Source: an uncultured bacterium (GTDB taxonomy: Bacteria > Zhuqueibacterota > QNDG01 > DSAB01). From it: DNA of 64,000 nt. The position numbers and the translations under genes were made by a program. Each line of letters starts with the position of its first letter. The first letter of the stretch is position 1. Of the stretch, positions 49,626 to 64,000 are shown piece after piece. Below the pieces are notes generated by a model that worked only from the letters and a program-made list of their open reading frames with translations, made no database searches and was not told the DNA's origin. Location of the stretch: contig CAZYVD010000006.1 in assembly GCA_964651045.1 (NCBI GenBank), forward strand, positions 8,570 through 72,569. Direction: 5' to 3'.

Positions 49626-50399
49626 TCAATTAAATCTTTCTTTCTTTATTTGGTTCCAGATTTTATCCATTTCTTCAAGCGATACATCTTTCAGGTCTTT
49701 TCCTTTATCTTCAAGAATCTTTTCTATAATCTTAAAGCGGTCAATGAACTTATCTACCGCCTTACGGAGGGCCGCTTCTGGATCTATTCTAATGAATCTC
49801 GATACATTTACTATTGAAAATAGAATGTCTCCCAGCTCTTCACTTATTTTGTCTCTGTCGTCTTCTTCGAGTGCCTTCTCGAATTCTTCAAACTCCTCTT
49901 TTACCTTATTTACAGCTGGTTTAAAATCTTTCCAATCAAAACCAACTGCAGATGCCTTCTGCTGAACTCGATATGCACGTTGAAGGGATGGAAGGGTTTT
50001 GGGAACTCCATCCAATACAGATGAGCCTTTTTCTTTTTTCTTTATACGCTCCCAGTGAACTCGCTGTTCCTCTGAGCTTTTTATATCTGCAATGCCAAAT
50101 ACATGTGGATGTCTCCTTATCAGTTTTTTGTTTATTGTATCGATGACATCCTCGATAGTGAAACTTTTCTCCTCTTTTGCAATCTGAGAGTGAAAGACTA
50201 TCTGCAGGAGAAGATCACCGAGTTCCTCTTTAAGCTCATCAGAACCACCAGACTCAATACTTTCGATCACCTCATACGTCTCCTCAAGGAGAAATGTGGT
50301 CAGCGAACAATGTGTCTGCTCCCTGTCCCATGGACACCCATCTGGTCCCCTGAGTCGGGACATGATCTCTATTAGTTTTTCGAATTTTTTACCTGTCAA
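49626..50399 (-). CDS. mazG: Nucleoside triphosphate pyrophosphohydrolase MazG
   Basis: Two MazG EExxE-type repeats (LLEETYEVIESIE..., ELGDLLLQIVFHS...; second copy EELGDILFSIVNVSR). Confidence 0.8.
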   Translation of the reverse strand: MTGKKFEKLIEIMSRLRGPDGCPWDREQTHCSLTTFLLEETYEVIESIESGGSDELKEELGDLLLQIVFHSQIAKEEKSFTIEDVIDTINKKLIRRHPHVFGIADIKSSEEQRVHWERIKKKEKGSSVLDGVPKTLPSLQRAYRVQQKASAVGFDWKDFKPAVNKVKEEFEEFEKALEEDDRDKISEELGDILFSIVNVSRFIRIDPEAALRKAVDKFIDRFKIIEKILEDKGKDLKDVSLEEMDKIWNQIKKERFN

Positions 50400-50547
50400 A
50401 ATTTCTCCTTTTTAATAATAAATCACTTAAACTAATTTCTCTATTTTTATTTGAAATTGCAAGGGAAAAGTAGTCGGGAAAGGCCTTGATTATTAAAATG
50501 ATGTTGGTTATATTTTCTCGATAGTAAATTAATTTGGAGAGATAATA

Positions 50548-50754
50548 ATGCTGGGCAGAAGGCTTCCAAAAGTAAGGCGTTTTTCCTACCAGCCTTACTA
50601 CTATGATCCTGAGAAAGAGGAGAGAGAGGGAAGGAAGATTAAATTCAGGCGGATGAGGTCTTCAAAGTCAGTGAAGCGACGTTCTCTAATATGGCTTTTT
50701 ATAATACTTGCATTTATAATCTATTTCATAATCATGCTGAGAAGAATTGGATAG
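50548..50754 (+). CDS. Small basic single-TM protein upstream of mutL
   Basis: 68 aa; Arg/Lys-rich N-terminus; C-terminal TM (LIWLFIILAFIIYFIIML). 12-nt gap to mutL. Confidence 0.3.
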   Translation: MLGRRLPKVRRFSYQPYYYDPEKEEREGRKIKFRRMRSSKSVKRRSLIWLFIILAFIIYFIIMLRRIG

Positions 50755-50766
50755 TAGAACTGTTCT

Positions 50767-52476
50767 ATGGGATCAAAGATAAATGTACTTCCTGAAAGTG
50801 TAATGCGGCGAATTGCAGCCGGGGAGGTAGTTGAAAGGCCTGCCTCTGTTGTTAAGGAACTGATCGAAAATTCTATCGATGCTGGAGCCACAAGTATATC
50901 TCTATATATAAAGGGAAGCGGGATAGACCTAATATGCGTAACAGACAATGGAGAGGGAATGAGTCAGGAGGATGCTCTAATATGCTGTAAGAAGCATGCC
51001 ACGAGTAAGATCTCAAATTATGAAGATCTTGAAAGAGTAACTACCATGGGATTCAGGGGAGAGGCACTATCAAGCATAGCTGCTGTATCGAGGATGGAGA
51101 TAACAACGCGTACAGATGATGAGCAGGAGGCTACTCGTATCTATATTGAAGCTGGCAGGATTGGTGAGGTTTCGAAGGTGGCTGCAAACAGGGGAACCAA
51201 GATTGTTGTAAAGGATCTATTTGGTAATGTACCTGCGAGAAGAAAATTTTTAAAAAGTCCAGCTACAGAGTTGAGACACATTGTTTCAGTATTCAGAAGG
51301 ATAAGTATTGCGTTTCCAGAGATCGATTTTTCTCTTTTTGTGGAAGATCAGAAGACCCTTGACCTGAGGAAAAGCTCACTTAAGGAAAGATTGAAGGAGC
51401 TTATAACAGAACATAATTTTAAAAGATTGATTCATTTCGATTCTCAGTTTTCGGGTATCAGGATTAAGGGCTATATAAGCCGCTTTGAACATTCTGGAAA
51501 AAGCAGGACCAATCAGATGATTTTCTTGAATAATAGATATATAGTAAGTAAGAGTCTAACTCACGGAATTTTATCAGCTTACGGTCCATCGGCTGAGAGA
51601 AGTATATATCCTCAATATTTCATATTTCTGGAGATGGATCCCAGCCAATTTGATGTCAATGTCCATCCAACAAAGATAGAGGTAAGGTTTCGTGATGAGA
51701 AGTATGTCCATGATGCATTGAAAAGGTCTGTACAAAATGTGCTAAAGGAGTCTGTATCGCTACCCGACTTCAGGGTTGTAAAGGGGAGTAGAAGTGGTTC
51801 GAGTAGTTTAAGATTTACCCGAAAAAGTCGAGGGAATTCTGCTCAACTTACACTGATAGCTCAGAGCCCCGGGCTAGAAGTAAATGAAAAGGAGTATTTA
51901 TCAAAAGAGGTAGAAAAACCGCTTCTCTGGCAGATTCACAATAAATATATACTCTCACAGATAAAGAGCGGTCTCACAATCATAGATCAGCATGTTGCAC
52001 ATGAAAGAATTATATATGAAAGCGTGATTCAGTCGAGAAGCAGAGATTCCATTCCATCCCAGCAGCTTCTTTTTCCCCAGACAATTCAATTAGAACAGAA
52101 CGATTACGAAGTATTGATTGAGATATTACCACATCTTGAAAGGATTGGGTTTGGACTCAAAGATTTTGGTGGAAATACAGTTGTCATAGAGTCTATTCCA
52201 ATGGATGTTAAGGCTGGAAGAGAAAGAGAAATACTTACTGAAATAATAGAATCTTATAAGAACGATAGAAGTGGCATAGAGGATGTATGGGATACTGTTG
52301 CAAAGACTTTTGCCTGCAAGGCAGCAGTAAGGGCGGGAGATCCATTGAAGTATCATGAAATGGCCTCACTCGTTGATCGTCTGTTTGCAACAAAAGAACC
52401 ATATTTCTGTCCTCATGGAAGACCCATTATTATAAATCTAACCCTTGATGAAATTGATAAGAGATTTGGTCGTTAA
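50767..52476 (+). CDS. mutL: DNA mismatch repair protein MutL
   Basis: GHKL ATPase N-terminus (RIAAGEVVERPASVVKELIENSIDAGAT) and a C-terminal dimerisation domain. Confidence 0.9.
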   Translation: MGSKINVLPESVMRRIAAGEVVERPASVVKELIENSIDAGATSISLYIKGSGIDLICVTDNGEGMSQEDALICCKKHATSKISNYEDLERVTTMGFRGEALSSIAAVSRMEITTRTDDEQEATRIYIEAGRIGEVSKVAANRGTKIVVKDLFGNVPARRKFLKSPATELRHIVSVFRRISIAFPEIDFSLFVEDQKTLDLRKSSLKERLKELITEHNFKRLIHFDSQFSGIRIKGYISRFEHSGKSRTNQMIFLNNRYIVSKSLTHGILSAYGPSAERSIYPQYFIFLEMDPSQFDVNVHPTKIEVRFRDEKYVHDALKRSVQNVLKESVSLPDFRVVKGSRSGSSSLRFTRKSRGNSAQLTLIAQSPGLEVNEKEYLSKEVEKPLLWQIHNKYILSQIKSGLTIIDQHVAHERIIYESVIQSRSRDSIPSQQLLFPQTIQLEQNDYEVLIEILPHLERIGFGLKDFGGNTVVIESIPMDVKAGREREILTEIIESYKNDRSGIEDVWDTVAKTFACKAAVRAGDPLKYHEMASLVDRLFATKEPYFCPHGRPIIINLTLDEIDKRFGR

Positions 52477-52482
52477 GAGGCG

Positions 52483-53406
52483 ATGAACAGAAGAATTGCA
52501 CTCTTGATTGTTGGTCCAACAGCATCGGGTAAATCTGAACTAGCCCTGAGAATATCTGAACTTTTAGAGTGTGAGATAGTTTCGGCCGACTCTCGCCAGA
52601 TCTTTCGTTATATGGATATTGGAACAGCCAAACCATCTGTCGAGGAGAGAAAAAGAGTGGTTCATCATTGCATCGATATAGTAGATCCGGATGAATATTT
52701 TAGTGCTGGAGAGTATGGCAAGATTGCACGAAACATAATCGAAGATATATTAGATAGAAAAAAGATTCCAGTAGTAGTAGGGGGGTCGGGGCTCTATATA
52801 AGGGCATTGGTAGAGGGAATATTTGAGGGAGATTATAGGGATCCGCAGTTAAGAGAGGAGTTGAAAAAAAAGATATCGAGCTGTGGGATCGATGAGGTAT
52901 ACAATGAGCTGAAGAAAGTCGATCCAAAAACAGCATCAAGAATACATCCAAATGATAAGAAAAGGATCATAAGGGCACTGGAAGTATTCAGGCTTTCCGG
53001 ACAACCCATGTCGAAAATGCAAGAAGAGAGAACAATTGCTGCCAATTTTAAGACACTATTTTTCGGACTGAAGTGGCCGAGAGAGCAGCTCAATAAAAGA
53101 ATAGATTTAAGAGTAGAAAAAATGTTAAAATGGGGCCTTATTGATGAGGTGAGAAGATTAAGATCGATGGGTTATGATCTGAGATACAACAGCATGGATT
53201 CTGTAGGATATAAGGAGCTGTTTCGATATCTCAATGGAGAAATTAGCCTTGAGGAGGCGGTTAACAGTATAAAGAGAAATACAAGACGCTTTGCCAAAAG
53301 ACAGATGACATGGTTTCGAAAGAATGGTAGAATTATATGGATTGAATTGAAAGAGCCTGTTGATTGGCATGATGTGGCAGTCCATGTAGTCGAATCTATT
53401 AAATAA
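52483..53406 (+). CDS. miaA: tRNA dimethylallyltransferase
   Basis: P-loop IVGPTASGKSELAL and DSRQIFRYMDIGTAKP. Confidence 0.9.
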   Translation: MNRRIALLIVGPTASGKSELALRISELLECEIVSADSRQIFRYMDIGTAKPSVEERKRVVHHCIDIVDPDEYFSAGEYGKIARNIIEDILDRKKIPVVVGGSGLYIRALVEGIFEGDYRDPQLREELKKKISSCGIDEVYNELKKVDPKTASRIHPNDKKRIIRALEVFRLSGQPMSKMQEERTIAANFKTLFFGLKWPREQLNKRIDLRVEKMLKWGLIDEVRRLRSMGYDLRYNSMDSVGYKELFRYLNGEISLEEAVNSIKRNTRRFAKRQMTWFRKNGRIIWIELKEPVDWHDVAVHVVESIK

Positions 53407-53408
53407 AT

Positions 53409-54128
53409 CTAAATAAATTTTTCACGTTTCTGTAGAAGAAATAGTGCCCACAGAACTGATATGATGGTTCCAATGGCAAGATATATCCTGTTTTCCAATA
53501 TAATGCCTGACCATATTGCTTCATTTATATCGGATGGGAGGTAGAATGGATTTAAAAATACGTTCCACTTGCTGCGTATTAGTATTCCACTGCCAATCCA
53601 GAAACCGAGTCCGATTATAATCATCAATACAGCCGTGCCATACCCATTTCTAACCATTGATGAAAACATAAAGGCAAGAGCACCTATAAAGCATATAGGA
53701 AACATGAGATGAAAGACCATCTCTATGATGGGAAAGGTTACGATTGCAATGTAACTCATGATACTTAGTAATAAAAGTATTAGTGCTACGATTACATAGA
53801 TCTGGATCAATCGAACAAGCCAGACCTTGTACCGATAGTTGGCAATCCCAAATATTATTTCAATCATCTGATAATCTACATCGTTTTGAATTCCAAATGT
53901 GGTTGGATAGAATATGATTAAAATACCTGGAAAGAGAAGCCAGTAATATACCATTCCTGATGATGGATTTGAATCGGAGAATAGATTAGCAATAACTATT
54001 ATCATGAAAAATAGTACTGCTCCAGTCAGGAAAAAGATAAACTTATTTGAGAATATTATTTTAAGATTATAGCGAAATATCCTGAAACAAAGATCGATAC
54101 TATTTTTTAGAAATTTTTGTGATTTCAT
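53409..54128 (-). CDS. ABC-2-type transporter permease
   Basis: 239 aa, 6 predicted TM helices. The start overlaps the ATPase-containing upstream ORF by 4 nt (ATGA). Confidence 0.6.
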   Translation of the reverse strand: MKSQKFLKNSIDLCFRIFRYNLKIIFSNKFIFFLTGAVLFFMIIVIANLFSDSNPSSGMVYYWLLFPGILIIFYPTTFGIQNDVDYQMIEIIFGIANYRYKVWLVRLIQIYVIVALILLLLSIMSYIAIVTFPIIEMVFHLMFPICFIGALAFMFSSMVRNGYGTAVLMIIIGLGFWIGSGILIRSKWNVFLNPFYLPSDINEAIWSGIILENRIYLAIGTIISVLWALFLLQKREKFI

Positions 54129-57100
54129 TGTTCTTGACTCACCATAGATGATTTTTCCTTTAACAACCAGAGATATGCATCTTCGAGTGTTGGAAGAACA
54201 CTCTTTGCATTCTTATATGGTTTTTTCTCTGATATGCATCTCACTCTTATTTTCTTGCCATCTCGCATGTGATGAACAACCAGCATACTCTTTCTTAGAG
54301 ATTCAAACTCTTCTAAATTTACCACAAACTGCCAGACATGACCTCTTGCAATGTGGGTCATATCAACAGGATTGCCGAGATATTTTAACTCTCCCTTATT
54401 TAGAACGGCTACTTTGTTACAGGAACTCGAGATGTCCTCTATAATATGAGTAGAGAATATTACAACTCTGTCGCGGCTTAGCTCCACCAAAAGATTGCGG
54501 AATCTTATACGCTCCCTGGGATCGAGTCCTGCTGTGGGTTCATCCACCACTAAAATGCGCGGAAGATGAAGAAGGATTTGTGCAATTCCAATTCTCTGTT
54601 TCATTCCTCCTGAGAATGATCCTATTCTATCATGTTTGTGCTCATCCATATGAACCGCAGAGAGCACATAATCAACTCTTTTCTCTCTTTCTTTTCTATC
54701 TATTATGTTTTTTAGGATTGCCTGATAGTTAAGAAATTCCCAGGCAGTCATATTCTCATAGGCTCCAAACTCCTGTGGAAGGTATCCAATCAGTCCCTGA
54801 AGTTCCTCTCTATATTTATTTACATCCAGGCCATTAATCCATATTTTCCCATAACTCTGTTCCAAAATGCCGCATATTATTCTCATTAGAGTGGTCTTTC
54901 CTGCACCGTTTGGGCCAAGCAGTCCAAACATTCCGCTTCCAATTTCGACAGATATTCTGTTTAATGCTCTGAATGGCCGTTTTTTTCTTCCAATGAAGGG
55001 TATCAACTGAACAAATCTGTAGAATCCTTTTCTCAGCCCACTGAGTTTTCCATCTATTCTTGCGATGTTTATCTTTTTACTATGAATTCTGTTGGATGTA
55101 GTGTAGATTATCAGCAGGAACGACCATATGAATCCGATCAAAAGAACCACTCCGATATTGTGCCACTTCATTTGAAATATTATCAAATTAATTAGTGGGA
55201 ATCCCCAGAAAAAAGATCTATCAATCGTATTTGCCAGTTTTTTATTCGAGCGGTTGGTAAGATAGAGTCGAATTGGATGGAGGAGAAAGAATATATAAGT
55301 GTAAAGCAGGTGAGAGAGTATGAAGATCCACAATCCACTGCGAATATAGAAATAGATAAAGTAGATAAGAAATCCGAGTAGAGGTATCTTCCAGAGATAT
55401 GAATCAAAATCTCTCAAAGAGAGGTAGGCCTTTGCAGTACCAGAATGTTTTTCGATTCTTTCGCCTTTCTTCCATTCCCTGATAAACCTGCTCTCACGGT
55501 CATAGATCTTTACTAGATTCTGTATCTTTATGATGATCTTTTCGTCTCTTCCTATAAGCCTTGTCTTTGCCTGTCGGAGAGAAGTCATAATAAAATATGT
55601 CAGGGCAGGTATTGTTACAACAGATGAAACAGATGCAATGATTTTCCATATAAAATTGTGAATGTTGTTAAGTATGAACCAGAAGCATAATATGAGCAGA
55701 ATGAGGTGAAAAATTTTAATCTTCCAGTTCAGGCTCTTTTCCCAGTTTATTGCATTCTCCATTCCAGAATAGAATGTTGGAATAATTATTAATGTAAGAA
55801 GCGTGGAGAGTGAAAGTCCGCCTATTACTGTAATAGCAAATGGTGCTCCTATCTGTGTGACATATTCAGCCTTTCCGAGTGCAAGTGGAATCATTGCAGT
55901 TATGGTGGTCACGGCAGTTATCGTTATTGGACGCAGCCTGGCCTGGCCTGCAGTAATCAACGCCCTGTTTCTTGTGAATCCTCTCTTCCTCAGTATTCTT
56001 GTGTAGTCGATCAGGATGATGGAGTTGTTTACAACTATTCCGAGCAGAATTATGAATCCCATGAGAGTGTTGGCATTAGATAGACCGTGACCGGTAAAAA
56101 TAAGAAGCCAGAATGAGCCTGCAGCAGCAAATGGAATTGAAAACATTATTACAAGGGGAAGATAGAAAGATTCGAAAACCGCTGATAGAATCATGTAGAT
56201 CAATATAAAGGCTGCACCTATTAGATAGTAGAACTCTGTTAGCTCAGTTTCATCATGCAGAACCTCAAGTGCAATGCCAGCAGGCACTCTCATCTCAGAT
56301 ATCAGGTTGTCGATCTTTTCTCTTGCCGCTTTGAGCAGTCCTTTGGATTGATTTATTTCATCAAGAAATTTGTATACAACCTCGATCTGTCTCTCCTGAT
56401 TTACTCTTCTTATGCTGCCGAGTCCAGATGCAAATACGATATTTGAAATATGTTGTAGCTGACTGACGCTTCCACCAGCTCCTACTATGGTCAGATTCCT
56501 GAGATCGTCGATTGTCTTGTTCTTTTTCTCCTCCTGACTTGTGCTGATGATTATCTCATATTCTTCATTTCCCTGTTTGAAAACCATTCCAGATGGGAAC
56601 TGATTCTGGAAGGTTGAGAGTTCTCTTGAAACAGAAATCGCATCGATTCCAAAATGACTCGTAATATACTTGTCAAAATAGATGTGGACCTCCGGTCTCT
56701 CTTTGGAGATATTCATCCTGACCCAGTCGATCTCGTCTATGTTTTCAAGAAAATATTCTATATCTTCTGCCGTCTTTTTCATTCTATTAAAATCTCTTCC
56801 CTTGATCACTATTCTTTCTCTTTGAGTGCCAATCCCAAGCATTCTCAGAAAACCTTCTCCAGGGTTGATTGTTCCGCCTCGTTTGGAGCCTGCAAAAGTG
56901 ATCTGAGGCTGTTCGAATGTGATATCGCCAAGGTAAAAGTCATCTATTCTTTTTTTAATATCGTTTTTAATTTGTGCAACAGTTCGATTCTTAATTTTTT
57001 CAAAATTATCTTTAAGAGTAATTGTTATTGTTGCCTCACCAGCATCTATTTTACTGATCACTTCCTCTTTTTCCTCTAAACCCTCCAGCCTTTTTTCAAT

Positions 57101-58861
57101 CTCGACCACTGCGAGATCGGTACTTTCCAGTGTTGTTCCTTCCGGCATTGTAAGTGACAGGTTGAATTCAGGGGTCTCGATCTCTCTTGATACATCAAAA
57201 CTAAGTGCAAGGCAGATAAAAACACTCAGGATAGTAAATATTGAAGCGCCTATCAAGGTGCGAACAGGATACCTCATACACGATTTTAAGAGAAGAGTAT
57301 ATATTTGTATGATGCGGCTGTTCTGGGATATATGCCTGAAAACAGAGTTAGAAATATCAGACCTTCGGGTCAGATAGTAATGTACAACCATTGGAATTAG
57401 AAACAGAGCAACGATTAAGGATACAAACAAGGTGGAGATTATTGATATGGAAACATGACGGCCGAACAGCTTAATAAAAAAATTTGATGTAAATGCAAAT
57501 GGAACAAATACAACTACTGTTGTAAGAGTTGCAGCAAAAATTGACCGCCACACCTCTCGTGTCCCCTGAATTACAGCTGTATCCCTTTCCTTTCCCCTGG
57601 ATACTAATCTGTAAATGTTTTCAAGAACAACCACACTGTTGTCTAGGAGCATTCCTATTGCAAGGGCCATACCGACCATTGTCAATGTATTTATTGTGAT
57701 ACCAAAACCATAGAAAAGGTTAAATGTTGTGAATACTGAAATGGGTATTGCAAGTGCTATGACAAACACGAGTTTTAAATTTTTTAAAAAGATCCACAGT
57801 ATTGCTACAGCCAGAATACCACCCACTATTGCAAGCTGTATGATTAGTTTTATGTTTTTCTCCATTATTTCGGCAGTGTTTGACTGGATGATTATCTCTA
57901 TATCCTTATATTTCAGTCTTTCATTGAGTTTCTTGATGAGCTCTTTTGTTGTATGTGAGAGGTCGATTAAGTTAACTCTCTGATCACGAATGAGTCTTAC
58001 AGTAACCGCTTCCTTTCCATTGACTCTACTTATAGATGTTTCCTCTTTTACCCCAAAATTTATATCAGAAACATCTTTTAAAAAGATAGGTCCGGTGTTG
58101 GATATAACAATATTTTCGAGATCGCTAATCTTTTCATATTCGGCAATAACATTTACATAATATTTTTTATTACTGTTGTAGAGGCTTCCTACAAAGCTTC
58201 TATTTTGTCCATTCTGAAGAATAGCAGACCTTATTTGATATGGCGTTATCCCTAATGCATGGCATACATCTTCGTCTATCACTATTTCAACAGATTTTTC
58301 TCTGCCTCCATATACACTAACGCCAGCAATCCCGTCTACAGTTTCGAGTTCACCAACTATCTCTTGGTCAGTGATGTTCCTGACCCTGTCTACGCCTCCA
58401 CTGCCTCGTACCTGAAGCTCCATAAAGAGATTTGACAGTTGTTCTGTGTCGATTTTTATGACATTTACAACAAATTCATCAGGCAATGATGATTTTATTT
58501 CATTGACCTTTTCCTGAAGCTTTAGATAGGCATATTTTATATCAACATTCTGCCTGAAGTAGAGAGTTATCGTGCCCCTCCGACTATCTATAAATGTTTG
58601 TATCTCCTCGATTCCCTCAAGAGTGCTGATTGCACCTTCTAATGGAATAACTGCCTGTGTTTCGACATAGGATGGTGTAACTTCGAGTAGTGTATTGATC
58701 TGAACAATCAGTAAAGGGAGTTCGGCATCTGGATAGAGTTCAACAGCAAGATTTCTATATGATATATAACCAAGCATGGTCAGACCTACAAACACCATGC
58801 TGATAAATGTCTTTCTTGTCAGGATCAATCGAGATAGGAGGCTTTTTGTTATCTTTTCCAT
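54125..58861 (-). CDS. Fusion protein of 1578 aa: complete RND (AcrB/HAE-type) efflux permease (about aa 1-1035), a 2-TM linker, and a C-terminal ABC-transporter ATP-binding domain (about aa 1108-1578) interrupted by a membrane-helix insert
   Basis: N-terminal 12-TM RND architecture with two large periplasmic loops, a TM4-like AIGMLLDNSVVVLENI and a last TM ending IIIPTFY. It continues without a stop into Walker A GLLGPNGAGKTT, Q-loop YLPQE, signature FSGGMKQR, Walker B ILVVDEP, D-loop AGLD and H-loop FSTHII. The ORF is continuous in the six-frame track. Confidence 0.7.
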   Translation of the reverse strand: MEKITKSLLSRLILTRKTFISMVFVGLTMLGYISYRNLAVELYPDAELPLLIVQINTLLEVTPSYVETQAVIPLEGAISTLEGIEEIQTFIDSRRGTITLYFRQNVDIKYAYLKLQEKVNEIKSSLPDEFVVNVIKIDTEQLSNLFMELQVRGSGGVDRVRNITDQEIVGELETVDGIAGVSVYGGREKSVEIVIDEDVCHALGITPYQIRSAILQNGQNRSFVGSLYNSNKKYYVNVIAEYEKISDLENIVISNTGPIFLKDVSDINFGVKEETSISRVNGKEAVTVRLIRDQRVNLIDLSHTTKELIKKLNERLKYKDIEIIIQSNTAEIMEKNIKLIIQLAIVGGILAVAILWIFLKNLKLVFVIALAIPISVFTTFNLFYGFGITINTLTMVGMALAIGMLLDNSVVVLENIYRLVSRGKERDTAVIQGTREVWRSIFAATLTTVVVFVPFAFTSNFFIKLFGRHVSISIISTLFVSLIVALFLIPMVVHYYLTRRSDISNSVFRHISQNSRIIQIYTLLLKSCMRYPVRTLIGASIFTILSVFICLALSFDVSREIETPEFNLSLTMPEGTTLESTDLAVVEIEKRLEGLEEKEEVISKIDAGEATITITLKDNFEKIKNRTVAQIKNDIKKRIDDFYLGDITFEQPQITFAGSKRGGTINPGEGFLRMLGIGTQRERIVIKGRDFNRMKKTAEDIEYFLENIDEIDWVRMNISKERPEVHIYFDKYITSHFGIDAISVSRELSTFQNQFPSGMVFKQGNEEYEIIISTSQEEKKNKTIDDLRNLTIVGAGGSVSQLQHISNIVFASGLGSIRRVNQERQIEVVYKFLDEINQSKGLLKAAREKIDNLISEMRVPAGIALEVLHDETELTEFYYLIGAAFILIYMILSAVFESFYLPLVIMFSIPFAAAGSFWLLIFTGHGLSNANTLMGFIILLGIVVNNSIILIDYTRILRKRGFTRNRALITAGQARLRPITITAVTTITAMIPLALGKAEYVTQIGAPFAITVIGGLSLSTLLTLIIIPTFYSGMENAINWEKSLNWKIKIFHLILLILCFWFILNNIHNFIWKIIASVSSVVTIPALTYFIMTSLRQAKTRLIGRDEKIIIKIQNLVKIYDRESRFIREWKKGERIEKHSGTAKAYLSLRDFDSYLWKIPLLGFLIYFIYFYIRSGLWIFILSHLLYTYIFFLLHPIRLYLTNRSNKKLANTIDRSFFWGFPLINLIIFQMKWHNIGVVLLIGFIWSFLLIIYTTSNRIHSKKINIARIDGKLSGLRKGFYRFVQLIPFIGRKKRPFRALNRISVEIGSGMFGLLGPNGAGKTTLMRIICGILEQSYGKIWINGLDVNKYREELQGLIGYLPQEFGAYENMTAWEFLNYQAILKNIIDRKEREKRVDYVLSAVHMDEHKHDRIGSFSGGMKQRIGIAQILLHLPRILVVDEPTAGLDPRERIRFRNLLVELSRDRVVIFSTHIIEDISSSCNKVAVLNKGELKYLGNPVDMTHIARGHVWQFVVNLEEFESLRKSMLVVHHMRDGKKIRVRCISEKKPYKNAKSVLPTLEDAYLWLLKEKSSMVSQEQ

Positions 58862-58897: not shown

Positions 58898-61800
58898 CTA
58901 TTTTTTCCTTATCGATGTTCTGGCGATTTCCAGCACATTGTAGACACATGGAATCACCAGTAATGTAAGTAGGGTAGAGGTGACAAGTCCACCGATTACC
59001 GCCAGAGCCATGGGAGCCCTCAAGGCTGCTCCCTCCCCAAAGCCAAGTGTTAAAGGAAGGAGTGCGAGTATTGTTGTAAGGCTAGTCATTATTATGGGTC
59101 GTATTCTTCTCTGGCCAGCTTCTGTGATTGCTTCCTCTATTGAAATTCCTTTTTCCCTTAGTCTGGTTATTGCATCTACAAGAATTATTGAATCATTAAC
59201 AGCAATACCAACGAGCATTATGATTCCAATTACAGCAATGATATTAAGTGGTTTCCCAATTATAAAGAACATCAGTATGGCACCAACAACTGCTAATGGG
59301 ATAGTTAAAATTATTGTAAAGGGATGAACAAGAGATTCGAATGTTGATGCAAGAACCATATAGACTAAAATTACAGAGAGTATCAGTGCAAAGCCAAGGT
59401 TTCTCATGGCAACTTTTCGCTTCTGTTCTGCCCCTGTGATCTCATACCGGTAGTCGGGAGGAAAATCGATAGAACCAAGCTTCGATTCTATCTCGTGGAT
59501 TATGTGATTAAATGGACGAGAGCTCTGGATATGTGCGCTCACCTGTCCGATCCTTGTCTGGTTTCTTCTGAGTATTTTTTTAGGCGCTCTTGTAATTCTT
59601 ATTGATGCAACATCATCGAGGAGTATTTTTCTATTACCGCTTGTAAGTTCGATATCCCTGAGTTGATCTATACTAACATCGGGGAGGCGTATTGTGATGT
59701 CTTTTAATTCACCTTCCGATTCCCATTGACCTGCACTCTTGCCCATCAGCCGATCTCTGAGCTGAGATGTTATCTGATTTACTGTTATATTATACACTCC
59801 TGCTCGCATTCTATCGACAACTACTTCTATCTCAGGAGCACCCTCTTCGAAACTTGTCTCAACATTAAACAGCTCTTTTATCTCGATCATTTTGTTTTTT
59901 ACCTGCTCTGTAAGCTCTTCTATGACAGAGAGCTCTTTTCCCTTTACCTCTACAACAACAGGAGCAGACTCTGTTCCTGTTACAGTCTGAAGGGCTGTCT
60001 GATCCTGAATGAATTTGACCTCAAGATCTGGAATATTTTGAGCGATTGTACTGAGGTTTTCTATTATTTCTTCTGAGGATTTTTCTCTATCTGGTCTTAA
60101 TACTATTTTTATTAATGCACTGTTTTCACCCTCAAGGATAGAGTTCTCTGTGCTACCAAAACTCTCCGAAGGTCCTATCCTTGCATATAGAGTCTCAAGG
60201 TCTTTTCCGATTGCCCTGCGGAATAGATTTTCAACATTATCTACAACTTGTTCCGTACGACGCAGCTCTGTTCCCTCTGGGAGGATCAGTTCCACAGAAA
60301 ACTGTCCCGAATCTATATATGGAATAAATTCGCTTCCCACTATTGGGAAAAGAAGTACTCCTGTTGCTATCAGTGCAGCAGCCGCTGCTATAACATACCA
60401 CTTTATTTTAAGGACTCTTTCAAGAAATTTTTTATACCATTCGAAGCGAATTGATTTCCCTACAGTAGAGACATTTTTGCGGAGAAATTTTGAGGTGAGC
60501 ATTGGAATTACAAGAATGGCAACAATTAGTGAAGAGAGAAGGGAAAAGGCAACAGTCAATGCCTGATCTTTAAACAACTCTCCTGCAGCATGGTGAATGT
60601 AAACAATTGGAAGAAACACAACGATTGTTGTTATTGTGGAAGCTGTTATTGCACCACCGACCTGTGCTGTTCCTGTAACTGATGCCTCGCGGATCGAGAG
60701 ACCGGACTCAATGTTTCGAAATATGTTTTCCATTACAACTATTGCATTATCAACAAGCATACCGGCTCCGAGTGCAAGTCCACCGAGTGTCATTATGTTT
60801 ATGGTCAATCCTGTGAAGTACATAAGGTTGAATGTTGCAACAATCGACATGGGAATGGCAAGGCTTATGATTGCAGTTGTACCGATCCTTCTGAGAAATA
60901 CATATAGTATGACTACTGCAAGTATGACTCCAATGAGGCCAGTTTCTTTTACCTCGTTTACTGCCTTCTGGATAAAGTCACCCTGATTTTGAATTATTGT
61001 GAATTCATAGCCAGGCAGTGCCTTTTTAATAGATTCTAATACCTTTTTTAACTGATTTACAGCGTTTATTGTATTGAATTTGGTTTCTTTATATATGGAG
61101 AGTCCAAGACAGCGTTTTCCATTTACACGAACAATATTTATCGGTTCTTTATTTGACAGATTCACTTCTGCTACGTCTTTTAAAAATATTGGGACCCTTT
61201 GTGCTGAACTATCCTGCAATGAAATTTCTTGGTAATTTTGTTGACTTCTGTAGTCTATTATCAGATTTTTTATATCATCAAGTGATTGAAATTCTCCAAT
61301 TCCCTTTATTATGTATTGAGTACCCATTTCAACAATTGTTCCGCCAGATATGTTTCTATTTATGCTCTGGATTCTGTTTGTTATAGTTTCTGGATAGATT
61401 CCATAGGCCCTGAGCAGATATGGATCGGTCCTGATTACTACCTCTTTTTCTTCTTTACCTGAGATTTCTACCTCTGCTATTCCTTCGAGTCTTATCAGTT
61501 CGTTTCTAATATAGTTTTCGGCAATCTTACGAAGGTCATCCATATCGTCGATGTCTGGATTGTACATGCCTACTATCATTACAGGTTCTTCGTTTGGATT
61601 GTGCTGGGTTATGTTGAGTAGATCTATATTTGAGTTTTGGCTGTACCCGGTAAGCGCCTTCTGAAGGTCAAGGAAGGCTTCTTCCATGTCTGCATCGTTT
61701 TGATACTCTACTGTTATCTGTGCAGAGCCCACTTTGGATATAGAAGAGACCTGAATCACCTTTTTCTGTCTTATTGCTATAGACTCTATGTTTCTTACAA

Positions 61801-62032
61801 ACTGATACTCTATTTCTTCGGGTGGCCTTTCGCCTGCCTTTAGTTCTATAAAGATTCTTGGATTATTGAGATCAGGAAAGAGATCTATTCCGAGTTTTTT
61901 AAAGGAGATATATCCGAGTAGAAATATACCAAGGACGACCATTAAGATTGTAATCGGATAGTTTACAGAAAATTGTGTGATTTTTTTCATGTTATTAAAA
62001 AATCCCCATTCCAAATGAACGATTGGCTGCAA
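58898..62032 (-). CDS. RND efflux permease (AcrB/HAE1-like), first of two tandem RND genes
   Basis: 1044 aa; 12 TM helices with two periplasmic loops; TM4 motif ALGAGMLVDNAIVVMENIF; canonical C-terminal end after TM12 (VIPCVYNVL). Confidence 0.85.
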   Translation of the reverse strand: MQPIVHLEWGFFNNMKKITQFSVNYPITILMVVLGIFLLGYISFKKLGIDLFPDLNNPRIFIELKAGERPPEEIEYQFVRNIESIAIRQKKVIQVSSISKVGSAQITVEYQNDADMEEAFLDLQKALTGYSQNSNIDLLNITQHNPNEEPVMIVGMYNPDIDDMDDLRKIAENYIRNELIRLEGIAEVEISGKEEKEVVIRTDPYLLRAYGIYPETITNRIQSINRNISGGTIVEMGTQYIIKGIGEFQSLDDIKNLIIDYRSQQNYQEISLQDSSAQRVPIFLKDVAEVNLSNKEPINIVRVNGKRCLGLSIYKETKFNTINAVNQLKKVLESIKKALPGYEFTIIQNQGDFIQKAVNEVKETGLIGVILAVVILYVFLRRIGTTAIISLAIPMSIVATFNLMYFTGLTINIMTLGGLALGAGMLVDNAIVVMENIFRNIESGLSIREASVTGTAQVGGAITASTITTIVVFLPIVYIHHAAGELFKDQALTVAFSLLSSLIVAILVIPMLTSKFLRKNVSTVGKSIRFEWYKKFLERVLKIKWYVIAAAAALIATGVLLFPIVGSEFIPYIDSGQFSVELILPEGTELRRTEQVVDNVENLFRRAIGKDLETLYARIGPSESFGSTENSILEGENSALIKIVLRPDREKSSEEIIENLSTIAQNIPDLEVKFIQDQTALQTVTGTESAPVVVEVKGKELSVIEELTEQVKNKMIEIKELFNVETSFEEGAPEIEVVVDRMRAGVYNITVNQITSQLRDRLMGKSAGQWESEGELKDITIRLPDVSIDQLRDIELTSGNRKILLDDVASIRITRAPKKILRRNQTRIGQVSAHIQSSRPFNHIIHEIESKLGSIDFPPDYRYEITGAEQKRKVAMRNLGFALILSVILVYMVLASTFESLVHPFTIILTIPLAVVGAILMFFIIGKPLNIIAVIGIIMLVGIAVNDSIILVDAITRLREKGISIEEAITEAGQRRIRPIIMTSLTTILALLPLTLGFGEGAALRAPMALAVIGGLVTSTLLTLLVIPCVYNVLEIARTSIRKK

Positions 62033-63082
62033 TCATCTTATTATCTTGACTCTTGAACGATTCTTAAGTGCTTCGAATCCCTTTATTATGAGTCTCTCAT
62101 TTTCCTCCAGTCCCTTTATGACTTCAACTTCTTCGGGATTTTCAAGGCCTGTGGTTATGGTCCTTTCTACAGCAACTCCCTTTCTAACTATAAATACTGT
62201 TTTTCCTCTTCGCCTCGACAGTATTATATCTTTTGGAATTACTATTGCACTATCCTTTCTTGCAACAATTATCTCTGCTTTGACAAACATGCCTGGTTTT
62301 ATGATTAAATTTTTATTGTCTATGATCATTGCTACTTTGAATGTCCTTGTCTCTGCATTTATCGCTGGTGAGACTTTCGTGATTTTACCAAGGAGGGTAT
62401 CTTCCTGTAGTGAGTAGTTGGTTATTCTAACGCTCTGTGATAAAGAAACTCTTCCCATCTCCTTTGCTGGAAGATTTACCTCCAGATAAAGCTGGTTGTA
62501 GTTCATAAGCCTTACCATTAACTGATTTGCCTGAACCCTGACCATTGGAGTGTAATATGGAAGATCTACGATAATTCCATCGAATGGTGCAGTTATGCTC
62601 ATTTTTGCTATTTGCAGAATTGCGTTATCGTAGTTATATTTTGCATTTATGTAGGCAAGTTCGGAATTTTTAAGCTCTCTGAGAGTCACTCCGCCTTTTT
62701 CATAGAGGGATTTTTGTTTTTCATATTCTCTTTTTGATATGTCAAGATTTAATCTTTTCGCCTCGATTGCTATGTTATTCTCATACTCCTCATCTTCAAG
62801 CCTGATCATGACCTTTCCTTTGGCTACCCAGTCACCAGGACCATACGGTCTCCCCGTATTTGGATTCATAAGGAGATTATAACGCCCAGAAATTTCAGAT
62901 TTGAGCGATACCTCCTTTATTGCCCTCACTGTTCCTGTCGATGTGATGAATTCTTCGATAGATTTTGGTTTTATCTCAACTACCGAAACCGGCACTGCTA
63001 TCTCGGTTTCGATGTTTGGCTCCTGTTTTCCACAGTTCAGCAGAAGAATAAAGACAGCCAGTAATAATGCTCTTTTCTTCAC
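62033..63082 (-). CDS. RND-type periplasmic adaptor (membrane-fusion protein, HlyD family); lipoprotein
   Basis: Lipobox LLLNCGK; coiled-coil hairpin plus lipoyl and beta-barrel regions. The stop abuts the RND start. Confidence 0.8.
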   Translation of the reverse strand: MKKRALLLAVFILLLNCGKQEPNIETEIAVPVSVVEIKPKSIEEFITSTGTVRAIKEVSLKSEISGRYNLLMNPNTGRPYGPGDWVAKGKVMIRLEDEEYENNIAIEAKRLNLDISKREYEKQKSLYEKGGVTLRELKNSELAYINAKYNYDNAILQIAKMSITAPFDGIIVDLPYYTPMVRVQANQLMVRLMNYNQLYLEVNLPAKEMGRVSLSQSVRITNYSLQEDTLLGKITKVSPAINAETRTFKVAMIIDNKNLIIKPGMFVKAEIIVARKDSAIVIPKDIILSRRRGKTVFIVRKGVAVERTITTGLENPEEVEVIKGLEENERLIIKGFEALKNRSRVKIIR

Positions 63083-63093
63083 CTGTTTACTCC

Positions 63094-63999
63094 TTATTTT
63101 ATTATTGATGGAACCACAGATTCATCCTTTTCAAAATCATATAGTGACTGGATCTTCATGTTCAGGAGTTCGAGTTTGTAGCTGATAAGTGAATTTATAA
63201 GGCTTTGCTTTTTTTGGGAAAGTTGTGTCTGATATAGCTGAAGGTCCATTCCTGTGAGGTCACCATTATTGTAGCGTTCAAGATTGATATCATAAGTCCG
63301 CTGCGCGTTTTCGACATTTTTCCTTGCAAGTTCGATCTGGGTTTCGAGGTTCTTGAGGTTGCGGTAAACATTTCTGATTGCAATAATAATGTTTTTCTTC
63401 TCATCATCTAAGTCGAGTTTGCTGACCTCTATTGTTGCCTCAGAGGCCTTTATTCTCGATCTTTTCTCGCCCCAGTCAAAGAGTGGAATATTAAAAGAGA
63501 GGGCCACTCTTTGATTTTTTGTTGGAACATTGTAAATGTCTTGAAATTTTTCATCTGTGCCGATGATTCCATACGAAAGATTGACCGTTCCCTTGAACTC
63601 ATTAATTGCCGATGTTCGTATTAGATTGAAATATGCATTTTCAATATCGATCTTTTGTTGTCTCAACTCCATTCTGTATTTCAGCCCGTGATCTATTGCC
63701 TTTTGCAGGTCGATCTTTATCGGTTGATAATTGACGTCCGCTACTACATCGATCTGCTCAAAGAGGGATATTCCGATTAATTTTTTTAAATTATCCTTTG
63801 CATTCTCAAGAGATACTTCACTGTTCTGTACTTGCGATTTGCTTGAAGCAACATTCAATTCTGCCTGATAGAGCTCCTCCAATGGGGCAAGACCAGCATT
63901 TACTTTATTTTGTGTTATCTCATAATTTTTTTCATAGTTTTTGAGTTCTTCTTTTGCTATTTCAAGGCTCATTCTTGCCTGGTATACTGTAAAAAAACT
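63094..63999 (-). CDS. TolC-family outer-membrane efflux protein; partial, with the N-terminus beyond the window end
   Basis: Coiled-coil-rich repeats typical of outer-membrane factor (OMF) proteins (LLNMKIQSLYDF..., ELARKNVENAQRTYDINLERYNNG). The reading frame is open to the window edge. Confidence 0.7.
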   Translation of the reverse strand, partial: SFFTVYQARMSLEIAKEELKNYEKNYEITQNKVNAGLAPLEELYQAELNVASSKSQVQNSEVSLENAKDNLKKLIGISLFEQIDVVADVNYQPIKIDLQKAIDHGLKYRMELRQQKIDIENAYFNLIRTSAINEFKGTVNLSYGIIGTDEKFQDIYNVPTKNQRVALSFNIPLFDWGEKRSRIKASEATIEVSKLDLDDEKKNIIIAIRNVYRNLKNLETQIELARKNVENAQRTYDINLERYNNGDLTGMDLQLYQTQLSQKKQSLINSLISYKLELLNMKIQSLYDFEKDESVVPSIIK

Positions 64000-64000
64000 C

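What the first reader, a model, noticed from the sequence alone, without database searches (positions are those of the whole stretch)
55097..55756. About 270-aa membrane-embedded linker and insert between the RND domain and the Walker A of the fused ABC domain
After the last RND helix (…IIIPTFY) come two extra predicted TM helices (IFHLILLILCFWFILNNI; IIASVSSVVTIPALTYFIM). Next is a segment that looks like the first beta-strand of an ABC NBD (IIKIQNLVKIYDRE). Then comes a roughly 100-aa insert with 3-4 strongly hydrophobic helices (WKIPLLGFLIYFIYFYI..., LWIFILSHLLYTYIFFLLHP..., IGVVLLIGFIWSFLLIIY), and only after that the canonical ...ISVEIGSGMFGLLGPNGAGKTT. A TM insert inside an NBD is highly atypical. 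It could anchor the ATPase to the RND membrane domain, or it may represent a cryptic extra permease half.
Basis: seen in the sequence. Interest (0 to 1): 0.6.

Follow-up and report, generated by a model that had tools for sequence, protein, structure and literature searches.

The report
Membrane hairpins splitting an RND-fused ABC ATPase
A 1578-residue protein joins an RND efflux pump to an ABC ATPase whose first strand is cut off from the rest of the domain by four membrane helices; this layout recurs in many uncultured bacteria, is unnamed in databases, and suggests a pump using both proton and ATP energy.

Summary
ORF 54125-58861 (-) encodes an RND permease (aa 10-1032) fused to an ABC ATPase. 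Between them lie a two-helix hairpin (TM13-14), then strand beta1 of the ATPase with its A-loop tyrosine (aa 1110-1123). A 173-aa insert (aa 1124-1296) with four membrane helices follows, and only then beta2 and Walker A.

Four results place beta1 in the ATPase:
- Excising the insert in silico lets alignments to ABCA1/3/4 run through beta1, adding 12-23 bits. A reversed-beta1 control gains far less.
- AlphaFold2 (pLDDT 86) models aa 1111-1120 as a strand and the insert as helices.
- The layout is kept in 15 full-length relatives 1550-1590 aa long.
- Two independent gene splits in relatives both cut between TM14 and beta1.

The insert matches nothing else among 1.84 billion representative proteins. 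The downstream 239-aa gene folds like a type V (ABC-2) permease, so the insert is probably a membrane tether, not a hidden permease. The operon is OMF, adaptor, RND1, RND2-ABC, permease. How the ATPase and the RND pump work together is inferred, not shown. I found no literature on this architecture.

The parts
55766..58861 (-). RND permease domain of the fused protein (RND2, aa 1-1032)
   Evidence: Pfam ACR_tran aa 10-1032, E 6.9e-157, profile 2-1018/1021. The best solved relative is MdtB. It is 28% identical to the upstream RND1.
55586..55714 (-). Extra helical hairpin TM13 (aa 1050-1067) and TM14 (aa 1074-1092) after the twelfth RND helix
   Evidence: KD hydropathy is 2.29 and 1.89. AF2 helices span aa 1046-1066 and 1070-1099. 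The hairpin is conserved in 15 full-length relatives. In the split forms it stays with the RND gene.
55493..55534 (-). Displaced strand beta1 of the ABC NBD, with the A-loop aromatic residue Y1120 (IIKIQNLVKIYDRE, aa 1110-1123)
   Evidence: Chimera test and reversed control. AF2 strand at aa 1111-1120. I1111 and K1118 are invariant; L1116, V1117 and Y1120 are at least 90% conserved. Gene fissions cut just upstream of it.
54974..55492 (-). 173-aa insert in the beta1-beta2 loop of the NBD (aa 1124-1296). In order: amphipathic helix RFIREWKKGERIEKHS, hairpin TM15/TM16, a basic cytoplasmic turn, hairpin TM17/TM18, and a basic helix-plus-loop segment leading into beta2
   Evidence: AF2 helices at aa 1125-1140, 1149-1155, 1158-1172, 1176-1203, 1207-1233, 1236-1261 and 1274-1285, with pLDDT mostly 80-94. 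No Pfam match at E<0.1. Only 89 hits among 1.84 billion representatives, all in this family.
55274..55393 (-). First inserted hairpin, TM15 (aa 1157-1173) and TM16 (aa 1177-1196), joined by the turn RSG
   Evidence: The motif W-x-x-P-L-x-G-F-x-I-Y-F is conserved.
55103..55210 (-). Second inserted hairpin, TM17 (aa 1218-1234) and TM18 (aa 1236-1253), joined by a one-residue turn
   Evidence: W1219 is invariant.
54128..54973 (-). Remainder of the NBD (aa 1297-1578). It runs from beta2 through Walker A (54890-54916), Q-loop (54773-54784), signature FSGG (54605-54616), Walker B with the catalytic Glu (54539-54556), D-loop (54521-54532) and H-switch (54446-54457) to a C-terminal beta-rich domain
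   Evidence: Pfam ABC_tran aa 1301-1444. Motif positions. Foldseek best hits are 4yer (TM_1403), NosF, LptB and ABCA NBDs. NCBIfam GldA and DrrA match from profile positions 16 and 6 onward.
53409..54128 (-). 239-aa membrane protein whose start overlaps the stop of the fused gene (ATGA); it is the probable type V (ABC-2) permease partner of the NBD
   Evidence: No Pfam or NCBIfam match. It has 3136 homologues. It lies downstream of the ABC part in every relative examined. AF2 pLDDT is 84. The top 45 Foldseek PDB hits are all type V ABC permeases, including PmtCD, NosY, ABCG2, ABCG5/8 and ABCG25, with TM-scores 0.5-0.67.
58898..62032 (-). RND1, a second unfused RND permease paralogue (1044 aa)
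   Evidence: Pfam ACR_tran E 6.5e-221. It is present upstream of RND2 in L007 and L008.
62033..63082 (-). Periplasmic adaptor (membrane fusion protein), 349 aa
   Evidence: NCBIfam TIGR01730 RND_mfp, E 4e-54, above its cutoff.
63094..64000 (-). TolC-like outer membrane factor, cut off by the end of the window
   Evidence: NCBIfam TolC and NodT profiles match from profile position 130 onward. The reading frame stays open to the window end.

Best explanation
**What it is.** The stretch is a membrane-tethering module made of three helical hairpins. It joins an ABC-2-type (ABCA/GldA/DrrA-like) ATPase to the C-terminus of an RND permease.

- The first hairpin (TM13-14) extends the RND domain.
- The chain then returns to the cytoplasm and forms strand beta1 of the ATPase, including the A-loop tyrosine that stacks on ATP.
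- It re-enters the membrane as two more hairpins (TM15-16, TM17-18) inserted in the beta1-beta2 loop.
- It comes back to complete an otherwise canonical, catalytically intact NBD.

Both ends of beta1 are therefore pinned to the membrane, which holds the beta-subdomain of the NBD against the cytoplasmic face next to the RND2 protomer.

**How it probably works.** The actual ABC permease is the separate 239-aa type V protein encoded next. The whole operon (OMF, adaptor, RND1, RND2-ABC, permease) would then build a composite efflux machine. An ATP-driven type V exporter moves a hydrophobic or amphiphilic substrate out of the cytoplasm or inner leaflet. It hands the substrate to a physically attached RND/adaptor/OMF pump, which expels it across the outer membrane. 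By analogy with MdtB2C, a 2:1 RND2:RND1 heterotrimer would supply exactly the two NBDs needed for an ABC dimer.

**Shown:** domain order, the split NBD, conservation, intact ATPase motifs, the permease-like fold of the neighbour, and operon conservation.

**Inferred:** the tether role, the physical complex, the stoichiometry and the two-stage transport.
For: **Split NBD.**
- Removing aa 1124-1293 extends alignments to ABCA1/3/4 through beta1 and adds 12-23 bits.
- The reversed-beta1 control adds only 3-5 bits.
- The AF2 model (pLDDT 86.2, pTM 0.69) has a strand at aa 1111-1120, seven helices in the insert and beta2 at aa 1297-1307.
- No strand is modelled directly before beta2.
- NBD family profiles start matching only at profile positions 2-16.

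**Topology.** Four inserted helices return the chain to the cytoplasm. K+R counts are 36 inside and 2 outside.

**Selection.**
- The insert motifs RFxREW, WxxPLxGF, W1219, G1271, R1277, P1288 and G1291 are conserved or invariant in 120 sequences.
- They are recognisable in representatives down to 26-30% identity.

**Module boundary.** Two independent fissions both fall between TM14 and beta1. One is a 68-nt tandem duplication in L001-L003; the other is an ATGA overlap in L007. Both leave the 4-helix insert with the ABC gene.

**Active ATPase.** Walker A, the Q-loop, the signature, Walker B with its Glu, the D-loop and the H-switch are all present.

**Separate permease.** The 239-aa neighbour is always downstream and folds like type V ABC permeases.

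**Operon.** OMF-adaptor-RND1-RND2(ABC)-permease recurs in a Melioribacteraceae MAG and in a further uncultured genome assembly.

**Precedents.** The MdtB2C heterotrimer is described in PMC4462101. The beta1-beta2 loop also tolerates an insert in CFTR NBD1 (PMC2217481).
Against: - No experiment or multimer model shows that the extra helices contact the RND domain, the 239-aa protein or each other. Model coordinates and PAE were not available, so the beta1-beta2 pairing and the packing of the six helices are inferred from DSSP states and confidence only.
- The type V assignment of the 239-aa protein rests on fold matches with weak E-values (0.01-1), although the hits are consistent. It has no sequence-family match.
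- An RND trimer and an ABC dimer have mismatched symmetry, and the 2:1 solution is speculation.
- The substrate is unknown.
- Both RND paralogues lack the AcrB-type D408 and K940. Their energy coupling is therefore uncertain, and an ATP-driven or ATP-gated RND cannot be excluded.
Confidence: 0.6

Rival explanations
1. Energy or signal coupling device. The hairpins flanking beta1 and the A-loop transmit conformational changes between the RND2 transmembrane domain and the ATP site. ATP hydrolysis then drives or gates the RND cycle, or RND cycling controls the ATPase. On this reading the module is more than a passive tether.
For: - The insert begins three residues after the A-loop tyrosine Y1120, and TM14 ends 17 residues before beta1, so the ATP-stacking strand is held between two membrane anchors.
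- All 15 full-length fused relatives and the window protein have TM4 'DN' and TM10 'NN'. They lack the AcrB D408 and K940 equivalents.
- The cytoplasmic parts of the insert are strongly conserved (RFxREW; the G1271...R1277...P1288.IG segment), beyond what a simple anchor needs.
Against: - The unfused paralogue RND1 also lacks D408 and K940, and its TM10 Asp is not conserved (L007 has 'VNN'). The deviant relay is therefore a trait of this RND clade and not specific to the fused protein.
- A complete ABC transporter (NBD plus type V permease) is encoded, which needs no RND to have a function.
- No ATP-coupled RND is known (own knowledge).
Confidence: 0.2
2. Cryptic permease. The six extra helices (TM13-18) are themselves part of the ABC translocation pathway, as an unrecognised transmembrane domain.
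For: Six helices is the usual count for an ABC half-transporter domain. The helices are conserved and confidently modelled.
Against: - A dedicated protein with a type V permease fold is encoded immediately downstream in all relatives examined.
- Profile comparison of the insert with that family gives probability 0.5%.
- There is no Pfam match and no relative outside this architecture among 1.84 billion representatives.
- The periplasmic turns are only 6, 3 and 1 residues, and no coupling-helix-like cytoplasmic loop is apparent.
- In the split forms the six helices are divided between two genes.
Confidence: 0.12
3. Artefact or misreading. Either the long ORF results from a lost stop codon or mis-assembly, or the beta1-like peptide is a chance resemblance and the NBD simply lacks its first strand.
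For: - The genome is AT-rich (GC about 38%), which favours Ile/Phe/Leu/Lys-rich sequence.
- Some relatives carry the RND and ABC parts as separate genes.
Against: - Fifteen cluster representatives 1550-1590 aa long have the same order of parts, including GC-rich genomes.
- The same fused gene (1576 aa) occurs in a Melioribacteraceae MAG.
- The real beta1 scores 9-18 bits above the reversed control against three ABCA proteins.
- AF2 models it as a strand.
- The split forms are derived: one arose by a 68-nt tandem duplication of the beta1-coding segment itself.
Confidence: 0.02

Closest known systems
CFTR NBD1 regulatory insertion (residues 404-435)
   Same: [quoted passage not shown]
   Different: The CFTR insert is about 30 residues, soluble, mobile and phosphorylated. 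The insert here is 173 residues, contains four predicted membrane helices in two hairpins, is confidently modelled and is conserved across phyla.
ABC-2 / type V exporters with a separate NBD and permease (NosFY, PmtCD, DrrAB, GldAFG; ABCA and ABCG in eukaryotes)
   Same: The NBD is closest to ABCA1/3/4, TM_1403 (4yer), NosF, GldA and DrrA. The neighbouring 239-aa protein folds like NosY, PmtCD and ABCG permeases. The gene order is NBD then permease, with overlapping stop and start.
   Different: - The NBD is split by membrane hairpins and fused to an RND permease.
- The permease matches no ABC2_membrane sequence model.
- The system sits in an OMF-adaptor-RND operon.
MdtABC-TolC (heterotrimeric MdtB2C RND pump)
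   Same: Two divergent RND paralogues are encoded in tandem behind one adaptor. MdtB is the best solved match of RND2. In MdtB2C the two subunits divide the labour (PMC4462101).
   Different: - RND1 and RND2 are only 28% identical and are not orthologues of MdtB/MdtC, because NCBIfam scores fall far below the cutoffs.
- One paralogue carries an ATPase.
- Stoichiometry is unknown.
MacAB-TolC (type VII ABC tripartite pump)
   Same: An ABC ATPase is joined to four membrane helices and works with an adaptor and an OMF to expel substrates across the outer membrane (PMC5985334 abstract).
   Different: - In MacB the four helices follow a contiguous NBD and carry a large periplasmic domain.
- Here the four helices sit inside the NBD, with periplasmic turns of 1-3 residues.
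- Here the periplasmic work would be done by RND domains.
- No sequence similarity was found.

Membership tests
ABC transporter nucleotide-binding domain (Pfam PF00005; ABC-2/ABCA-like subgroup) | Walker A, Q-loop, signature, Walker B with catalytic Glu, D-loop and H-switch, in that order | tested here: met
   GPNGAGKTT 1316-1324, YLPQ 1360-1363, FSGG 1416-1419, ILVVDE 1436-1441, AGLD 1444-1447, FSTH 1469-1472. PF00005 E 2.1e-28.
ABC transporter nucleotide-binding domain (Pfam PF00005; ABC-2/ABCA-like subgroup) | N-terminal strand beta1 carrying the A-loop aromatic residue | tested here: met
   IIKIQNLVKIY aligns with ABCA1 'VSIQNLVKVY' and 'ILEIKELTKIY' once the insert is removed. The reversed control loses 9-18 bits. 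Y1120 is at least 90% conserved. AF2 models a strand.
ABC transporter nucleotide-binding domain (Pfam PF00005; ABC-2/ABCA-like subgroup) | A contiguous soluble domain, with beta1 and beta2 joined by a short hairpin loop | tested here: not met
   173 residues with four hydrophobic helices separate beta1 (ending at 1123) from beta2 (starting at 1297).
RND permease, AcrB/HAE1-like (Pfam PF00873) | Full-length 12-helix permease with two large periplasmic loops | tested here: met
   ACR_tran covers profile 2-1018 of 1021, E 6.9e-157. The protein aligns end to end with ZneA, CmeB and AdeB-type chains.
RND permease, AcrB/HAE1-like (Pfam PF00873) | AcrB-type proton relay D407, D408 (TM4), K940 (TM10) and R971 (TM11) | tested here: not met
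   TM4 reads LDN (D kept, the second D replaced by N). TM10 reads VNN (K replaced by N). The TM11 R is kept. This holds in the window protein, in all 15 full-length relatives and largely in RND1.
Type V (ABC-2) ABC permease, for the 239-aa neighbour | Sequence match to an ABC-2 membrane family model | tested here: not met
   No Pfam or NCBIfam match, even at E up to 10.
Type V (ABC-2) ABC permease, for the 239-aa neighbour | Six-helix type V fold with an N-terminal amphipathic helix, encoded next to an ABC-2-type NBD | tested here: met
   The AF2 model (pLDDT 84) has an N-terminal helix plus six long helices. The top 45 Foldseek PDB hits are all type V permeases, with probability mostly 0.75-1.0 (two lower), TM-score 0.4-0.67 and weak E-values of 0.01-1. 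The gene start overlaps the NBD stop codon.
MdtB2C-like heteromeric RND pump | Two RND paralogues in one operon with a single adaptor | tested here: met
   RND1 58898-62032, RND2 54125-58861 and the adaptor 62033-63082. The same arrangement is in L007 and L008.
MdtB2C-like heteromeric RND pump | Obligate 2:1 heterotrimer | not testable with these tools
   This needs biochemistry or a multimer structure. MdtB/MdtC equivalog scores are far below their cutoffs.
MacB-type (type VII) ABC transporter | Contiguous N-terminal NBD followed by four helices that bear a large periplasmic domain | tested here: not met
   The helices lie inside the NBD and their periplasmic turns are 1-3 residues. No MacB-family hit to the insert.

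The most novel reading that the evidence does not exclude
This may be the first RND pump mechanically coupled to ATP hydrolysis. Two RND2-ABC protomers and one RND1 would form a heterotrimer. Its two membrane-clamped NBDs dimerise on ATP. Through the hairpins that flank the A-loop strand, they drive or gate the conformational cycle of RND protomers that lack the classical Asp-Asp-Lys proton relay. The attached type V permease feeds substrate from the inner leaflet. The result would be a single machine using both ATP and (possibly) proton-motive force.
Probability: 0.15. Interest if true: 0.9.

Novelty: new variant of a known kind. Interest (0 to 1): 0.72.

Why it matters
RND pumps and ABC exporters are the two main engines of efflux across the Gram-negative envelope, and they are treated as separate machines with separate energy sources. 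Here both are encoded in one polypeptide in a conserved family. The family is widespread in uncultured Bacteroidota, Ignavibacteriota (Melioribacteraceae), Latescibacterota and Krumholzibacteriota; relatives of the linked 239-aa permease also carry KSB1 and Calditrichota labels.

- **Linked two-stage efflux.** The physical link makes the long-discussed cooperation between inner-membrane exporters and tripartite pumps directly testable in one complex.
- **A new kind of NBD insert.** An NBD can apparently accept four membrane helices in its beta1-beta2 loop, next to the ATP-stacking residue. I am aware of no precedent for that.
- **Annotation gap.** Current annotation hides all this. Sources name these proteins 'efflux RND transporter permease subunit' or 'ABC-type multidrug transport system ATPase subunit'. 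The insert and the 239-aa partner have no family model.

Tried and rejected
2. **Third word-indexed homologue search with the insert alone.** It returned nothing, although one search had found more than 120 relatives covering it. I treat this as a limit of the word index, not as absence. The exhaustive phmmer search is the valid count.
3. **Genome scan with the insert as a single protein.** It confirmed only three loci, two Latescibacterota and one Krumholzibacteriota. This is too few for a taxonomic census.
4. **Internal duplication among the three hairpins.** hhalign gave 72% probability over 29 columns for TM13-14 versus TM15-16 and under 6% for the other pairs. I regard this as hydrophobic bias and do not claim it.
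5. **Degenerate proton relay specific to the fused RND2.** Rejected as a specific argument. RND1 also lacks D408 and K940, and its TM10 Asp is absent in L007.
6. **Literature searches.** Searches for RND-ABC fusions and for the co-occurrence of ACR_tran and ABC_tran found nothing relevant. The library lacks most subscription papers, so prior mention cannot be excluded.
7. **Model coordinates and PAE.** These are not exposed, so strand pairing and helix packing could not be measured.
Full report
**Observation**

The region lies inside a 1578-codon ORF on the minus strand, 54125..58861.

| Element | Residues |
|---|---|
| End of the last RND helix, IIIPTFY | 1025-1031 |
| Extra hydrophobic helix TM13 | 1050-1067 |
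| Extra hydrophobic helix TM14 | 1074-1092 |
| IIKIQNLVKIYDRE | 1110-1123 |
| Hydrophobic helix | 1157-1173 |
| Hydrophobic helix | 1177-1196 |
| Hydrophobic helix | 1236-1253 |
| Walker A | 1316-1324 |

Pfam assigns ACR_tran to aa 10-1032 and ABC_tran to aa 1301-1444. Nothing is assigned to the 268 residues between them. The finding's coordinates 55097-55756 correspond to aa 1036-1255. The full unassigned stretch is 54974-55765.

**Is IIKIQNLVKIYDRE the first strand of the NBD?**

With the native sequence, alignments to solved NBDs start only around aa 1289-1297. NCBIfam NBD models (GldA, DrrA, LptB and others) match only from profile positions 6-17 onward, so the usual first strand is missing at its usual place.

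I then deleted aa 1124-1293 in silico. Alignments to ABCA1, ABCA3 and ABCA4 now ran through the segment at high posterior probability. It pairs with ABCA1 NBD1 'VSIQNLVKVY' and with NBD2 'ILEIKELTKIYRRKRKP'. A control with the 14 residues reversed recovered only a small part of the gain.

| Target | Native | Insert removed | Reversed beta1 control |
|---|---|---|---|
| ABCA1 | 165.6 bits | 188.7 bits | 170.3 bits |
| ABCA3 | 182.6 bits | 194.7 bits | 185.6 bits |
| ABCA4 | 169.5 bits | 188.7 bits | 174.5 bits |

AlphaFold2 on aa 1033-1578 with 120 aligned sequences gave mean pLDDT 86.2 and pTM 0.69. The model elements, in protein numbering, are:

- a beta-strand at aa 1111-1120
- helices at 1125-1140, 1149-1155, 1158-1172, 1176-1203, 1207-1233, 1236-1261 and 1274-1285
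- beta2 at aa 1297-1307
- no strand directly before beta2

All other strands of the model belong to the NBD. The partner of 1111-1120 must therefore be in the NBD sheet. I could not inspect coordinates, so this last step is an inference.

Y1120 sits where the A-loop aromatic residue sits in ABC NBDs and is at least 90% conserved.

**Anatomy and topology**

The insert between beta1 and beta2 is 173 residues (1124-1296). In order it contains:

1. a basic amphipathic helix (RFIREWKKGERIEKHS)
2. hairpin TM15/TM16, joined by RSG
3. a basic cytoplasmic turn
4. hairpin TM17/TM18, joined by one residue
5. a basic segment with a helix, leading into beta2

Four spans are needed to bring both ends back to the cytoplasm. 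Lys+Arg counts are 36 in the predicted cytoplasmic segments against 2 in the periplasmic turns. With TM13-14 there are three hairpins, all with periplasmic turns of 6 residues or fewer. The rest of the NBD has every catalytic motif.

**Conservation and distribution**

A search with aa 1032-1578 found relatives of 54-66% identity that cover the linker, the insert and the NBD. Those with a source name are labelled Bacteroidales, Prolixibacteraceae, Draconibacterium, Odoribacter, Latescibacterota or Spirochaetales. They are annotated only as 'efflux RND transporter permease subunit' or 'ABC-type multidrug transport system ATPase subunit'.

An exhaustive phmmer search of aa 1095-1300 against 1.84 billion cluster representatives gave only 89 hits. 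Every full-length hit is a protein of 1550-1590 aa. Aligning 15 of them shows the same order of parts. The conserved motifs in the insert are RFxREW, WxxPLxGFxIYF, an invariant Trp at 1219, and G1271/R1277/P1288/G1291.

The insert has no Pfam match. Profile comparison with the downstream permease family gives probability 0.5%.

**Gene fissions mark the module boundary**

In three metagenome contigs the unit is split into an 1101-aa RND gene and a 483-aa ABC gene. The junction is a 68-nt tandem duplication of the beta1-coding segment. Copy one ends the RND gene with a TAG inside beta1. The ATGATG start of the ABC gene is the Tyr-Asp codon pair of copy one read in a shifted frame. Copy two supplies an intact beta1.

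In another genome the split is an ATGA overlap exactly after TM14.

Both events leave TM13-14 with the RND gene, and beta1 plus the four-helix insert with the ATPase gene. This is independent evidence that beta1 and the insert belong to the NBD module.

**Surroundings**

The minus-strand genes form a tight operon:

| Gene | Coordinates |
|---|---|
| TolC-like OMF, running off the window | 63094-64000 |
| Adaptor | 62033-63082 |
| RND1 | 58898-62032 |
| RND2-ABC | 54125-58861 |
| 239-aa membrane protein, start overlapping the preceding stop | 53409-54128 |

The same order occurs in a Melioribacteraceae MAG, with a 1576-aa fusion, and in a further genome assembly.

The 239-aa protein has 3136 homologues and no family model. 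It follows the ABC part in every relative examined, at 54% identity in L001. Its AF2 model (pLDDT 84) has an N-terminal helix and six long helices. Its top 45 Foldseek hits in the PDB are all type V ABC permeases (PmtCD, NosY, ABCG2, ABCG5/8, ABCG25, ABCA). The E-values are weak but the probabilities are high and TM-scores reach 0.67. The NBD itself is closest to ABCA, TM_1403, NosF, GldA and DrrA. A conventional permease partner therefore exists.

**Mechanism**

*Shown:* a catalytically complete ABC-2-type NBD is covalently joined to an RND permease through three membrane hairpins, two of which interrupt the NBD at the beta1-beta2 loop.

*Inferred:*

- The hairpins act as a tether that pins the beta-subdomain of the NBD to the membrane beside RND2.
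- The NBD dimer works with two copies of the 239-aa permease as a type V exporter. It passes substrate to the attached RND/adaptor/OMF pump.
- RND1 and RND2 (28% identical) form a heterotrimer like MdtB2C (PMC4462101). A 2:1 ratio would supply exactly two NBDs.

*Main rival:* the hairpins are a coupling device that links ATP hydrolysis to the RND cycle. The insert starts three residues after the ATP-stacking tyrosine. The fused family also lacks the AcrB D408 and K940 equivalents. However, RND1 lacks them as well and its TM10 Asp is not conserved, so this argument is weak.

The 'cryptic permease' reading is disfavoured by the dedicated permease gene, by the minimal periplasmic turns and by the lack of any homology.

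**Comparison with known systems**

- MacB joins an NBD to four helices, but in series and with a large periplasmic domain.
- Full-text searches for RND-ABC fusions found nothing. The library is incomplete.

**Verdict**

The insert is a family-specific, membrane-embedded interruption of an NBD within a conserved RND-ABC fusion. I rate it a new variant of known kinds. Confidence in the architecture is high; confidence in the proposed function is moderate to low.

Noticed in passing
L001:7941-8074 (also L002, L003): A 68-nt tandem duplication of the beta1-coding segment splits the ancestral RND-ABC fusion into two genes. Copy one carries a TAG stop. The ABC gene's ATGATG start is the Tyr-Asp codon pair of copy one read in a shifted frame. 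This is a clear case of gene fission by duplication.
   Followed up: yes
L007:7990-8010: A second, independent split of the fusion lies exactly after TM14 ('...AFI*' / 'MTSLR...') with an ATGA stop/start overlap. It could be a real fission or a one-base sequencing error in the MAG.
   Followed up: partly
window 57640-57645 and 56023-56031 (RND2 TM4 and TM10); window 58898-62032 (RND1): Both RND paralogues deviate from the AcrB proton relay. TM4 reads 'DN' instead of 'DD', and TM10 reads 'NN' (RND2) or 'ND' (RND1) instead of 'KN'. The TM11 Arg is kept. RND2 shows this pattern in all 15 full-length relatives. The RND1 TM10 Asp is missing in L007.
   Followed up: partly
window 53409-54128 (-): The 239-aa membrane protein belongs to a family of more than 3000 sequences with no Pfam or NCBIfam model, annotated everywhere as hypothetical. 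The predicted fold is a type V ABC permease. The family appears to lack any family model.
   Followed up: partly
L001:1967-4309: In this relative, six small genes (78-119 aa, one with a Polbeta nucleotidyltransferase domain) sit between the upstream 954-aa gene (probably RND1) and RND2. They look like an inserted toxin-antitoxin-like cassette inside the operon.
   Followed up: no
window 49626-53406: The operon ends convergently, two bases from the stop of a miaA-like gene (52483-53406, +). That gene follows a mutL-like gene (50767-52476, +) and a mazG-like gene (49626-50399, -). These names are my reading of the translations, not tool-checked. The same IPPT-family neighbour is seen on contig L009, which carries an identical 239-aa protein.
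   Followed up: no
window 63094-64000 (-): The TolC-like OMF reading frame is open to the end of the window, so the 292-aa ORF listed is a truncated view of a longer gene.
   Followed up: yes
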